Source: a virus. Taken from it: 42,338 nt of DNA. Within the stretch, counting starts at the first letter, position 1, and every line of letters begins with the position of its first letter. Below, piece after piece: positions 29,660-30,498 of this stretch. Position numbers and translations under genes: made by a program. The DNA lies in the UHGV virus genome UHGV-0127092. One strand, given 5' to 3'. The notes below the pieces were generated by a model. It made no database searches and was not told the origin of the DNA. It saw only the letters and a list, made by a program, of their open reading frames with translations.

Positions 29660-30498
29660 GATGGAATTTCAGTCTGGCCATAGTCCTTGCCAGCGAAATT
29701 TTCGGCAACTCGCGTCTGTTGGCGTGGTTGAGGCTTGGAACCCTTTGGCTCAAACAAGCCTTGCCAGCCATTGGCGATGCTCTGGTTAATAATTTCGTCA
29801 GGGGTGTAGCCGTTCAGCCTGCAGCGGTCGAGCAACTTGATAGCTTGCGTCACGGTCTGCTGAGACTTGATCGGCTTTTTCAGGTCACGACGGTATGCCA
29901 CCCATGACGACCAGATTTCTGCAGAAAGCCAGTCAGGCAACTTAACAGCTGACGCATCGAACGAAACCGCCCGGGGGGATTTAGGGGGGTTATTAATATT
30001 GTCTTTATTGTCTTTTGTATGTTTGTCTTTTGTGTTTACCTGATTCGGGTAATAGGCGTTACCTGATTCGGGTAAACTTTTCTTACCTGATTCGGGTAAA
30101 TTTACCTCTTTCGGGTAAACATTATTTTTCTTACCTGATTCGGGTAATGTTTCCCATTCGCTGACCACATTATTAATACCGATATTCCGCCCGCTCTGAA
30201 TAAAAATCCCACGCTTTACCAGAACACTTTTTGCAGCTGAGCACTTATGCGGGAGAATTCCGGTCAGCTCCGAGATCTGCTCGTTACTGACCCAGTCAGA
30301 TTTCTTATTGAAGCCGTATGTTTTGCGCATGACGGCCATGAACACCAAAAGCTGATGCTGCGACAAACCTGCATGCATGACAGCCTCCAGTAATTCATTA
30401 GCGATGCGCGTAAACCCGTCGTCGAGATCTGCCACGCGCTGCTCCTTAGGTGCCACGTCAGGCACAGGGAAATTGATTACTTCGGCAGTGTTTGCCAT
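29644..30498 (-). CDS. Replication initiator protein, lambda O-like
   Basis: N-terminal DGFTRIANELLEA...LSQHQLLVFMAVMRKTYGF block as in lambda O; central LPESGKK peptide repeats encoded by the ori iterons. Confidence 0.8.
   Translation of the reverse strand: MANTAEVINFPVPDVAPKEQRVADLDDGFTRIANELLEAVMHAGLSQHQLLVFMAVMRKTYGFNKKSDWVSNEQISELTGILPHKCSAAKSVLVKRGIFIQSGRNIGINNVVSEWETLPESGKKNNVYPKEVNLPESGKKSLPESGNAYYPNQVNTKDKHTKDNKDNINNPPKSPRAVSFDASAVKLPDWLSAEIWSSWVAYRRDLKKPIKSQQTVTQAIKLLDRCRLNGYTPDEIINQSIANGWQGLFEPKGSKPQPRQQTRVAENFAGKDYGQTEIPSWARD
29985..30147. repeat. Origin of replication: five 17-bp iterons (TTACCTGATTCGGGTAA) plus adjacent AT-rich tract, inside the O gene
   Basis: Iterons at about 30036, 30059, 30083, 30102 (degenerate) and 30131, each with inverted arms TTACC/GGTAA; AT-rich TGTCTTT-repeat tract at about 29985-30035. 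Confidence 0.7.

What the first reader, a model, noticed from the sequence alone, without database searches (positions are those of the whole stretch)
29985..30147. Iteron-type replication origin embedded in the O-like gene
Five copies of a 17-bp element TTACCTGATTCGGGTAA (one degenerate), each with inverted arms TTACC/GGTAA, lie at roughly 19-29-bp spacing inside the initiator gene and encode its LPESGKK repeats. They are flanked by an AT-rich tract with TGTCTTT repeats. This matches the lambda ori organisation.
Basis: partly seen in the sequence, partly recalled or inferred. Interest (0 to 1): 0.4.

Follow-up and report, generated by a model that had tools for sequence, protein, structure and literature searches.

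The report
Lambda-type replication origin inside O gene
This is an ordinary lambda-style phage replication origin (five initiator-binding repeats plus an easily melted AT-rich stretch) sitting inside the initiator gene of an E. coli prophage. It matters only as a new binding-site variant of a textbook system.

Summary
Five copies of TTACCTGATTCGGGTAA (one with 2 mismatches) lie at 30036-30147, spaced 23/24/19/29 bp. Chance expectation is 0.04 copies. They sit in the linker-coding part of a 284-aa Phage_rep_O gene (29644-30498, minus strand). A T-rich tract with three TGTCTTT copies (29990-30035) adjoins them.

- The array starts at codon 118, against codon 117 in lambda.
- The four AT-proximal repeats are spaced 19/24/23 bp, against 20/24/23 in lambda.
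- The AT tract shares ACACAAAAGACA with lambda, P22, HK97 and mEpX1.
- Gene order is cI | cro-cII-O-loader, as in lambda.

The repeats are DNA elements, not protein repeats. They are read in two reading frames. Across 13 loci from many Enterobacterales genera the arms differ by 0.4%, the spacers by 39.5%. Iteron sequence co-varies with a short predicted helix-turn-helix segment of the O N-domain.

Differences from lambda are five repeats instead of four, a different repeat sequence, an unrelated O C-terminal domain, and a DnaC/IstB-like loader instead of P.

O binding and origin firing are inferred, not shown. Verdict: a new member of a well-known kind, of low interest.

The parts
30131..30147 (.). 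Iteron 1 in O-sense order (promoter-proximal, the extra copy relative to lambda's four): TTACCCGAATCAGGTAA on the O-sense strand, read as LPESGK.
   Evidence: It lies 29 bp upstream of iteron 2. The same 29+19 two-iteron unit is duplicated in relatives.
30102..30118 (.). Iteron 2: the degenerate copy TTACCCGAAAGAGGTAA, with intact arms and a changed centre. It is read in another frame (YPKEV).
   Evidence: In the 16 related loci the copy 19 bp before its neighbour has the variant centre (GAAAGAG or GAAAAAG) in 12 and the standard centre in the rest (L011, L014, L016, L017).
30083..30099 (.). Iteron 3, exact copy, read as LPESGK.
30059..30075 (.). Iteron 4, exact copy, read as LPESGN.
30036..30052 (.). 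Iteron 5, exact copy, next to the AT-rich tract, read in the second frame (YPNQV).
   Evidence: In all 16 related loci it starts 19 nt before ACACAAAAGACA.
29990..30035 (.). AT-rich tract, the presumed DNA-unwinding element. It is A-rich on the O-sense strand, carries three AAAGACA (TGTCTTT) copies at 30000, 30009 and 30024, and has the conserved 12-mer ACACAAAAGACA at its iteron-proximal edge.
   Evidence: GC is 0.32-0.34. Nearest-neighbour stability z = 3.3-3.4, among the 0.05-0.1% least stable windows of the 42 kb. The 12-mer is shared with lambda, P22, HK97 and mEpX1.
29967..29989 (.). GC-rich block closing the origin on the far side: CCGCCCGGGGGG (10 of 12 palindromic), then TTTA, then GGGGGG. 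It encodes PPKSP. It corresponds in position to the CCCCCT-AAA-GGGGG block of P22 and to the palindrome right of lambda's AT tract.
   Evidence: Read directly. Its role is inferred.
29644..30498 (-). O-like replication initiator gene, 284 aa. The N-domain (aa 21-115, 30154-30438) is Phage_rep_O. The linker (aa 118-172) is encoded by the origin. The C-domain (aa ~172-284) is unrelated to lambda O.
28787..29659 (-). DnaC/IstB-like AAA+ helicase-loader gene. Its start overlaps the O stop by 16 nt. It takes the place of lambda P.
   Evidence: Pfam IstB_IS21 1.4e-16. PHROG 50 DnaC-like helicase loader 3.2e-83. NCBIfam DnaC model 2e-42, below its cutoff.
30581..31088 (-). cII-like (30581-30802) and cro-like (30843-31088) genes upstream of O. 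Rightward early transcription would run through the origin, as from pR in lambda.
   Evidence: Pfam Phage_CII 8.6e-13 and a weak YdaS/HTH hit. A divergent S24 cI-like repressor lies at 31173-31940.

Best explanation
This is the replication origin of a lambdoid E. coli prophage, built like ori-lambda. The steps below are inferred from homology with lambda; none was shown here.

1. Dimers of the O-like initiator bind the five dyad-symmetric 17-bp iterons (30036-30147) through the N-terminal winged-helix-type domain. Together they form a wrapped nucleoprotein complex (an 'O-some').
2. On supercoiled DNA this destabilises the adjacent AT-rich tract (29990-30035).
3. The initiator's C-terminal domain recruits host DnaB through the phage DnaC-like ATPase encoded immediately downstream. 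This loader replaces lambda P.
4. Early rightward transcription from the cro/cII side runs through the site and probably activates it.

The origin DNA doubles as the coding sequence for the flexible linker between the two O domains.
For: Position and anatomy match lambda. The array starts at codon 118 against 117 in lambda. The AT-proximal spacing is 19/24/23 against 20/24/23. The AT tract lies on the same side with the shared 12-mer ACACAAAAGACA. P22's annotated rep_origin has the same layout and a nearly identical AT tract.

Selection acts on the DNA. The same 17-mer is read in two frames. In 13 loci from Escherichia to Xenorhabdus and Providencia the mean pairwise difference is 0.004 in the arms, 0.119 in the centres and 0.395 in the spacers. 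Spacing of the AT-proximal copies and the 19-nt distance to the AT tract are invariant in 14 and 16 of 16 loci respectively.

Iteron sequence co-varies with the initiator.
- All loci with TTACCCGAATCAGGTAA share the N-domain segment LTG(I/M)L(P/S)HKCSAAKS.
- Lambda, P22, HK97, mEpX1, phi80, a Serratia locus and an Aeromonas locus each have their own segment and their own iteron.
- L008 and L009 closely match the window (one or four differences) over the first 62 residues, but carry a P22-like segment and different iterons at lambda spacing.

The AT tract is among the 0.05-0.1% least stable 30-50-bp stretches of the window.

The N-domain/iteron module is found joined to DnaC-like or lambda-P-type partners, with the break inside the AT tract. 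This is what a two-domain origin-binding initiator predicts.

O and the loader are intact ORFs.

The literature definition of a lambdoid origin is iterons plus an AT-rich tract in the middle of O, with 4 copies in lambda and 6 in Stx phages (PMC7466680; PMC8022706 for P22 and phage L).
Against: - Nothing here measures O binding, unwinding or initiation.
- The O C-terminal domain has no Pfam or PDB relative, so its contact with the DnaC-like protein is assumed from gene adjacency.
- The AT tract is not the single least stable site in the window; it ranks 5th to 9th among non-overlapping stretches.
- The single-sequence structure model of the N-domain was of low confidence (pLDDT 51). Calling residues 72-96 the helix-turn-helix therefore rests on family knowledge and a weak model.
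- The element is a prophage copy, and its activity is untested.
Confidence: 0.88

Rival explanations
1. A relic origin. The sequence keeps the lambda-type anatomy, but the prophage is defective and the site no longer fires.
For: It is a chromosomal prophage copy. Only 19 of 5426 complete E. coli genomes carry at least 80% of this O-loader pair. No activity data exist.
Against: O (284 aa) and the loader (290 aa) are intact and full length compared with relatives. Four of five iterons are perfect, and the fifth is the variant also found at that position in most relatives. The same module occurs in deposited phage genomes (Klebsiella GZ7 and RCIP0034; Escherichia 4A7 and Lambda_4C10).
Confidence: 0.06
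2. The repeats are protein-level linker repeats (LPESGKK) maintained for the initiator protein and have no role as DNA sites.
For: Three copies do encode LPESG(K/N).
Against: Two copies are read in another frame, as YPKEV and YPNQV. The palindromic arms are about 100 times better conserved than the equally coding spacers (0.004 against 0.395). Copy number varies from 4 to 11 while spacing to the AT tract stays fixed.
Confidence: 0.02
3. The repeats bind O mainly for control (autoregulation, titration or exclusion of related phages), while initiation takes place at another site.
For: Ectopic ori-lambda copies are known to inhibit related phages (abstracts of PMC3349717 and PMC4488673, listed). 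The outer iterons of Stx phages bind O only weakly (PMC7466680).
Against: No other repeat array exists in the window. The conserved AT tract sits at a fixed 19 nt from the last iteron in all relatives. The homologous site in lambda is the mapped origin (annotated in NC_001416).
Confidence: 0.04

Closest known systems
ori-lambda (phage lambda, four iterons ITN1-4 plus an AT-rich tract inside gene O)
   Same: - Homologous initiator N-domain (37% identity over aa 1-191).
- Origin at the same codon position.
- Dyad-symmetric iterons of 17-18 bp.
- AT-proximal spacing 19/24/23 against 20/24/23.
- AT tract on the same side, beginning with the same ACACAAAAGACA.
- Gene order cI | cro-cII-O-loader, with an oop-like antisense RNA candidate upstream of O.
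   Different: - Iteron sequence is TTACCCGAATCAGGTAA, not ATCCCTCAAAACGAGGGA.
- Five copies instead of four.
- The O C-terminal domain is unrelated (no alignment beyond aa ~191).
- The partner is a DnaC/IstB-like AAA+ ATPase, not P.
- The right flank is a C/G-run block instead of lambda's TCGTCAGAGAATTCTGGCGA palindrome.
P22 origin in gene 18 (annotated rep_origin in OQ031658.1) and the HK97 O origin
   Same: - P22 is the closest classical N-domain (49% identity; HK97 40%).
- The P22 iteron TTTACCGAATCGGTAAA resembles this one.
- The AT tract is nearly identical (ACACAAAAGACAATATACAAAAGACAATAAA) and is followed by C-run blocks.
   Different: - P22 and HK97 have four iterons with their own sequences.
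- Their downstream gene is a DnaB-type helicase (gp12 / HK97 P), not a DnaC-like loader.
- The C-terminal domain differs.
mEpX1 O/DnaC module (Escherichia phage mEpX1)
   Same: - The same type of O C-terminal domain (well conserved from aa ~172 to the end in a full-length alignment that is 49% identical overall).
- The same AT tract and C-run right flank.
- A DnaC-like loader and a Ren-like gene downstream.
   Different: The N-domain recognition segment and the iterons differ (TGTCTCNAAGTTAGAGACA, four copies).
Stx-phage origins (933W, P27) with six lambda-type iterons
   Same: These are precedents for more than four iterons, made by duplicating promoter-proximal copies that also lengthen the O linker. 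The extra copies bind O weakly but are required for replication (PMC7466680).
   Different: Those phages keep lambda's iteron sequence and P. Here one extra copy is present, and in relatives the array expands by a 48-bp two-iteron unit.

Membership tests
lambdoid (ori-lambda-type) replication origin | The origin lies inside the initiator gene, between the regions coding for its N- and C-terminal domains. | tested here: met
   The iterons occupy codons 118-155 of the 284-aa O ORF. The Pfam N-domain ends at aa 115. Lambda's array starts at codon 117.
lambdoid (ori-lambda-type) replication origin | The initiator carries the Phage_rep_O N-terminal DNA-binding domain. | tested here: met
   PF04492 at 1.8e-34 (118.5 bits, cutoff 28.7) and TIGR01610 at 86.8 bits (cutoff 45.5). 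Identity to lambda O is 37%.
lambdoid (ori-lambda-type) replication origin | Four or more direct repeats of about 17-19 bp, each an imperfect inverted repeat, about two helical turns apart. | tested here: met
   Five copies. Half-sites match 7 of 8. Spacing in O-sense order is 29/19/24/23 bp, and the last three values mirror lambda's 20/24/23.
lambdoid (ori-lambda-type) replication origin | An AT-rich, strand-asymmetric tract directly adjoins the iterons on the promoter-distal side. | tested here: met
   Tract 29990-30035: GC 0.32-0.34, AT skew -0.76. Stability z is 3.3-3.4. The 12-mer ACACAAAAGACA is shared with lambda.
lambdoid (ori-lambda-type) replication origin | The initiator binds the iterons specifically. 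| not testable with these tools
   Indirect support only: iteron sequence co-varies with the N-domain segment at aa 78-100 across more than 20 loci, and the arms are about 100-fold better conserved than the spacers.
lambdoid (ori-lambda-type) replication origin | Replication starts at the site and depends on O, its partner protein and transcription through or near the origin. | not testable with these tools
   The gene order cro-cII-O-loader places the site in the early rightward transcript. No functional data exist.
lambda O-P subtype (helicase delivered by lambda P) | A P-family loader gene lies downstream, and the O C-terminal domain is homologous to lambda's. | tested here: not met
   The downstream gene is IstB/DnaC-like. 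The O C-domain does not align with lambda O. Relatives with the same iterons but a Phage_lambda_P partner do exist (L001, L012, L016).

The most novel reading that the evidence does not exclude
The iteron-proximal part of the AT tract consists of ACACAAAAGACA followed by further AAAGACA copies. It may be a sequence-specific element rather than merely easy-to-melt DNA, for example a strand-specific single-stranded-DNA contact for the initiator or for the incoming helicase.

The motif is invariant, including at synonymous codon positions, in lambda, P22, HK97, mEpX1 and all relatives sampled. These differ in iteron specificity, in O C-domain and in loader type (P, DnaC-like, DnaB-like).

The rival explanation is shared ancestry. 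This tract is also the recombination junction between modules, and the TKD-coding constraint would favour the same sequence. My recollection, not checked here, is that conservation of this tract among lambda, phi80 and 82 was noted in the late 1970s.
Probability: 0.3. Interest if true: 0.35.

Novelty: new member of a known kind. Interest (0 to 1): 0.15.

Why it matters
It matters little for biology at large, since the architecture is textbook.

Practically, it pins the origin of this prophage family to 29990-30147. It defines an iteron specificity class (TTACCCGAATCAGGTAA, paired with the N-domain segment LTGILPHKCSAAKS) that is spread across Enterobacterales prophages and several deposited Klebsiella and Escherichia phages. 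In those database records only 'replication protein O' is annotated.

The natural series has the same iterons with 4 to 11 copies, joined to P-type or DnaC-type partners. A within-domain recombinant with switched iterons also exists. Together these form a ready-made panel for anyone studying initiator specificity or how O-type initiators hand over to different helicase loaders.

Tried and rejected
The single-sequence model had pLDDT 51, too poor for a fold search. I cite only its helix/strand order, and weakly.
- Pfam at E up to 10 and a PDB sequence search on the O C-terminal domain found nothing meaningful. PHROGs offers only a 'primosomal protein' label. The idea of a DnaT-like C-domain therefore stays untested.
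- Rfam found no RNA family at 28500-31500.
- A full-text search for the iteron sequence in either orientation found no paper. That library lacks most of the older subscription literature on phages 82 and phi80. I checked phi80 directly, and its annotated gp15 sites (TTCCCGAAAACGGGAA) are different. Phage 82 could not be checked.
- No DnaA box (TTWTNCACA) lies near the origin; the only one in the window is at 3086.
- I did not run the large protein-database searches (search for homologous proteins, representative search). The genome-contig scan already gave enough relatives, and the answer did not depend on more.
- Protein-level repeat explanation: rejected on reading frames and on the arm/spacer contrast.

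Full report
**What is in the sequence**

The plus strand between 30036 and 30147 carries five copies of a 17-mer. TTACCTGATTCGGGTAA occurs exactly at 30036, 30059, 30083 and 30131. TTACCTCTTTCGGGTAA occurs at 30102. Start-to-start spacing is 23, 24, 19 and 29 bp.

A search allowing three mismatches finds no further copy in the 42,338-bp window. It expects 0.04 matches by chance. Tandem Repeats Finder reports no comparable iteron-like array elsewhere in the window.

Each unit is a near-palindrome. In the gene's sense it reads TTACCCGA-A-TCAGGTAA, and the half-sites match 7 of 8.

To the left on the plus strand lies a T-rich stretch, 29990-30035. GC there is 0.32-0.34 and AT skew is about -0.76. 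TGTCTTT occurs at 30000, 30009 and 30024, out of only eight copies on that strand in the whole window.

**Where it sits**

All of this lies inside ORF 29644..30498 on the minus strand (284 aa). Its residues 21-115 match Pfam Phage_rep_O (1.8e-34) and NCBIfam phage_O_Nterm.

| Coordinates (strand) | Gene | Evidence |
|---|---|---|
| 28787..29659 (-) | DnaC/IstB-like AAA+ protein, overlapping the O stop by 16 nt | |
| 30581..30802 (-) | cII-like | |
| 30843..31088 (-) | cro-like | |
| 31173..31940 (+) | divergent S24 repressor | |

The window is a mosaic lambdoid prophage of E. coli.
- The O-loader segment is 99.9% identical to the chromosome of strain 21AR0133.
- Only 19 of 5426 complete genomes carry at least 80% of that segment.
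- Other parts of the window match HK225, mEp237, phi80 and mEpX1 at 94-99%.

**Comparison with lambda and other characterised origins**

The protein aligns with lambda O over residues 1-191 at 37% identity and not beyond. Lambda's annotated iterons start at codon 117 of O. Here the first one starts at codon 118.

Read in the O sense, the spacing is 29, 19, 24, 23. Lambda's four iterons are spaced 20, 24, 23. The four AT-proximal copies therefore correspond to ITN1-4, and one extra copy lies upstream.

The AT tract follows the last iteron on the same side as in lambda. It begins with the same 12-mer, ACACAAAAGACA.

P22's gene 18 carries an annotated rep_origin with the same layout. Its AT tract is almost the same (ACACAAAAGACAATATACAAAAGACAATAAA). 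HK97 O is alike.

The literature defines a lambdoid origin as iterons plus an AT-rich tract in the middle of O. Lambda has four iterons and Stx phages have six (PMC7466680). P22 and phage L have their own repeats inside gene 18 (PMC8022706).

**Are the repeats DNA elements or protein repeats?**

Three copies are read as LPESG(K/N). The other two are read in a different frame, as YPKEV and YPNQV. The repeated entity is therefore the DNA.

A scan of one genome per bacterial species returned 20 loci with N-domain relatives. Together with phage records, 16 loci carry the same iteron, in 4 to 11 copies. They come from Escherichia, Klebsiella, Enterobacter, Kluyvera, Pseudocitrobacter, Pantoea, Xenorhabdus, Providencia, Arsenophonus and Sodalis.

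| Feature | Result |
|---|---|
| AT-proximal spacing 19/24/23 | 14 of 16 loci |
| Distance from the last iteron to ACACAAAAGACA | 19 nt in all 16 |
| Arms TTACC/GGTAA, pooled over 85 copies | almost invariant |
| How the array grows | duplication of a 48-bp (29+19) two-iteron unit |

In the 13 loci that can be aligned without gaps, the mean pairwise differences are as follows.

| Region | Mean pairwise difference |
|---|---|
| Iteron arms | 0.004 |
| Iteron centres | 0.119 |
| Spacers | 0.395 |

All three classes are coding. The contrast points to selection on the DNA sites.

**Co-variation with the initiator**

Every locus with TTACCCGAATCAGGTAA iterons has the N-domain segment LTG(I/M)L(P/S)HKCSAAKS (alignment A1). 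Other phages and loci each have another version of this segment and their own iteron.

| Phage or locus | Iteron |
|---|---|
| lambda | ATCCCTCAAAACGAGGGA |
| P22 | TTTACCGAATCGGTAAA |
| HK97 | TTAGCCAAGTCGGCTAA |
| mEpX1 | TGTCTCNAAGTTAGAGACA |
| phi80 | TTCCCGAAAACGGGAA |
| Serratia locus (L018) | TTTACCGAATCAGTAAA |
| Aeromonas locus (L020) | ATCACGGAAATCCGTGA |

Two loci, L008 and L009, are the most telling.
- They closely match the window (one or four differences) over the first 62 residues.
- They carry a P22-like segment (MTGLAATRCSTAKNELIR).
- They have different iterons (TTTCnnCCGTnnnGGAAA), still at 20/24/23 spacing.

A low-confidence single-sequence model (pLDDT 51) places helices at residues 72-79 and 84-96, followed by two strands. 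This order is that of a winged helix-turn-helix, but I give it little weight.

**The unwinding element**

A nearest-neighbour stability scan puts 29990-30030 among the 0.05-0.1% least stable stretches of the window (z 3.3-3.4). It ranks fifth to ninth among non-overlapping sites. Its fixed position next to the iterons singles it out, not its rank.

**Modularity**

Escherichia phages of the 4A7 / Lambda_4C10 group share window 30006-30507 at about 86-93% identity. That stretch covers the N-domain, the iterons and half of the AT tract. They then switch to a lambda-like right flank, a different C-domain and a lambda P gene.

Conversely, mEpX1 shares the C-domain, the right flank and the DnaC-like partner, but has another N-domain and other iterons.

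| Partner of this iteron module | Loci |
|---|---|
| DnaC/IstB-like loader | window, L002, L004, L006, L014 |
| Lambda-P loader | L001, L012, L016 |
| No recognisable loader | L007 |

This is what a two-domain initiator predicts, with an origin-binding N-domain and a loader-recruiting C-domain.

**Mechanism**

The following steps are inferred from homology with lambda.
1. O dimers bind the iterons and wrap the DNA.
2. Supercoil-dependent opening follows at the AT tract.
3. The C-domain brings in DnaB through the DnaC-like ATPase.
4. Early rightward transcription activates the site.

Shown here: the anatomy, its homology, DNA-level constraint and co-variation. Not shown: binding, opening, loader contact and initiation.

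**Differences from lambda**

- Five iterons instead of four, with their own sequence.
- The second iteron has the variant centre found at that position in most relatives.
- The C-terminal domain is unrelated and has no Pfam or PDB match.
- The loader is DnaC-like.
- The right flank is a C/G-run block, not lambda's palindrome.

**Novelty and score**

The iteron sequence was not found in the searchable literature. It differs from the lambda, phi80, P22, HK97 and mEpX1 sites, but phage 82 could not be checked.

The architecture is textbook, and the relatives are already annotated as O genes. I file it as a new member of a known kind, with interest 0.15.

The least ordinary reading still open concerns the invariant ACACAAAAGACA/AAAGACA motif. 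It is shared by origins with different initiator specificities and loader types, so it may be a sequence-specific element rather than only AT-rich DNA. Shared ancestry at a recombination junction explains the same data.

Noticed in passing
window 30473-30577 (+ strand): An oop-like antisense RNA candidate lies between cII and O. A promoter-like site TTGATT-17-CATAAT with an extended -10 TG sits at 30473-30501. It is followed by two hairpins and a U-run (MFE -24.3 kcal/mol, z -4.48). The phi80 record annotates 'M3 RNA, homolog of lambda oop' at the equivalent place. There is no Rfam match.
   Followed up: partly
window 32120-33528 (+ strand): A low-GC two-gene cassette lies next to the cI-like repressor, where lambda has rexAB. 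It consists of a DUF6932 protein (159 aa) and a 310-aa protein. They match the PADLOC candidate defence pair PDC-M63A/B (1.8e-41 and 6.4e-45).
   Followed up: partly
L008 2501-3622 and L009 2501-3604: The O homologues in Enterobacter sichuanensis and Klebsiella grimontii carry a T5orf172 domain of about 100 aa (Pfam 7.1e-8) inserted between the N-domain and the iterons. They also have a swapped recognition segment and changed iterons.
   Followed up: partly
window 29991-30002 and 30167-30178: A 12-nt inverted repeat, TATTAATATTGT / ACATTATTAATA (11 of 12 complementary), brackets the whole iteron array plus the AT tract. Both arms encode I-N-N. It may be chance.
   Followed up: no
L006 2600-3300; L016; L017: Iteron number in the same family ranges from 4 to 11 (Kluyvera 9, Arsenophonus 8, Sodalis 11). 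It grows by in-frame duplication of a 48-bp two-iteron unit, which lengthens the O linker by 16 aa per unit.
   Followed up: partly
L007 2498-4171 (Klebsiella sp. WOUb02): This locus has the same N-domain and iterons, but a third type of O C-terminal domain and no recognisable P, DnaC or DnaB gene downstream. It recalls the 'O only' lambdoid replication modules mentioned in PMC12315714.
   Followed up: no
window 28446-28790 (- strand): The gene after the loader is a small winged-helix protein that matches the PHROG 'Ren-like exclusion protein' family (2.7e-28). This keeps lambda's O-P-ren order even though the loader type differs.
   Followed up: no
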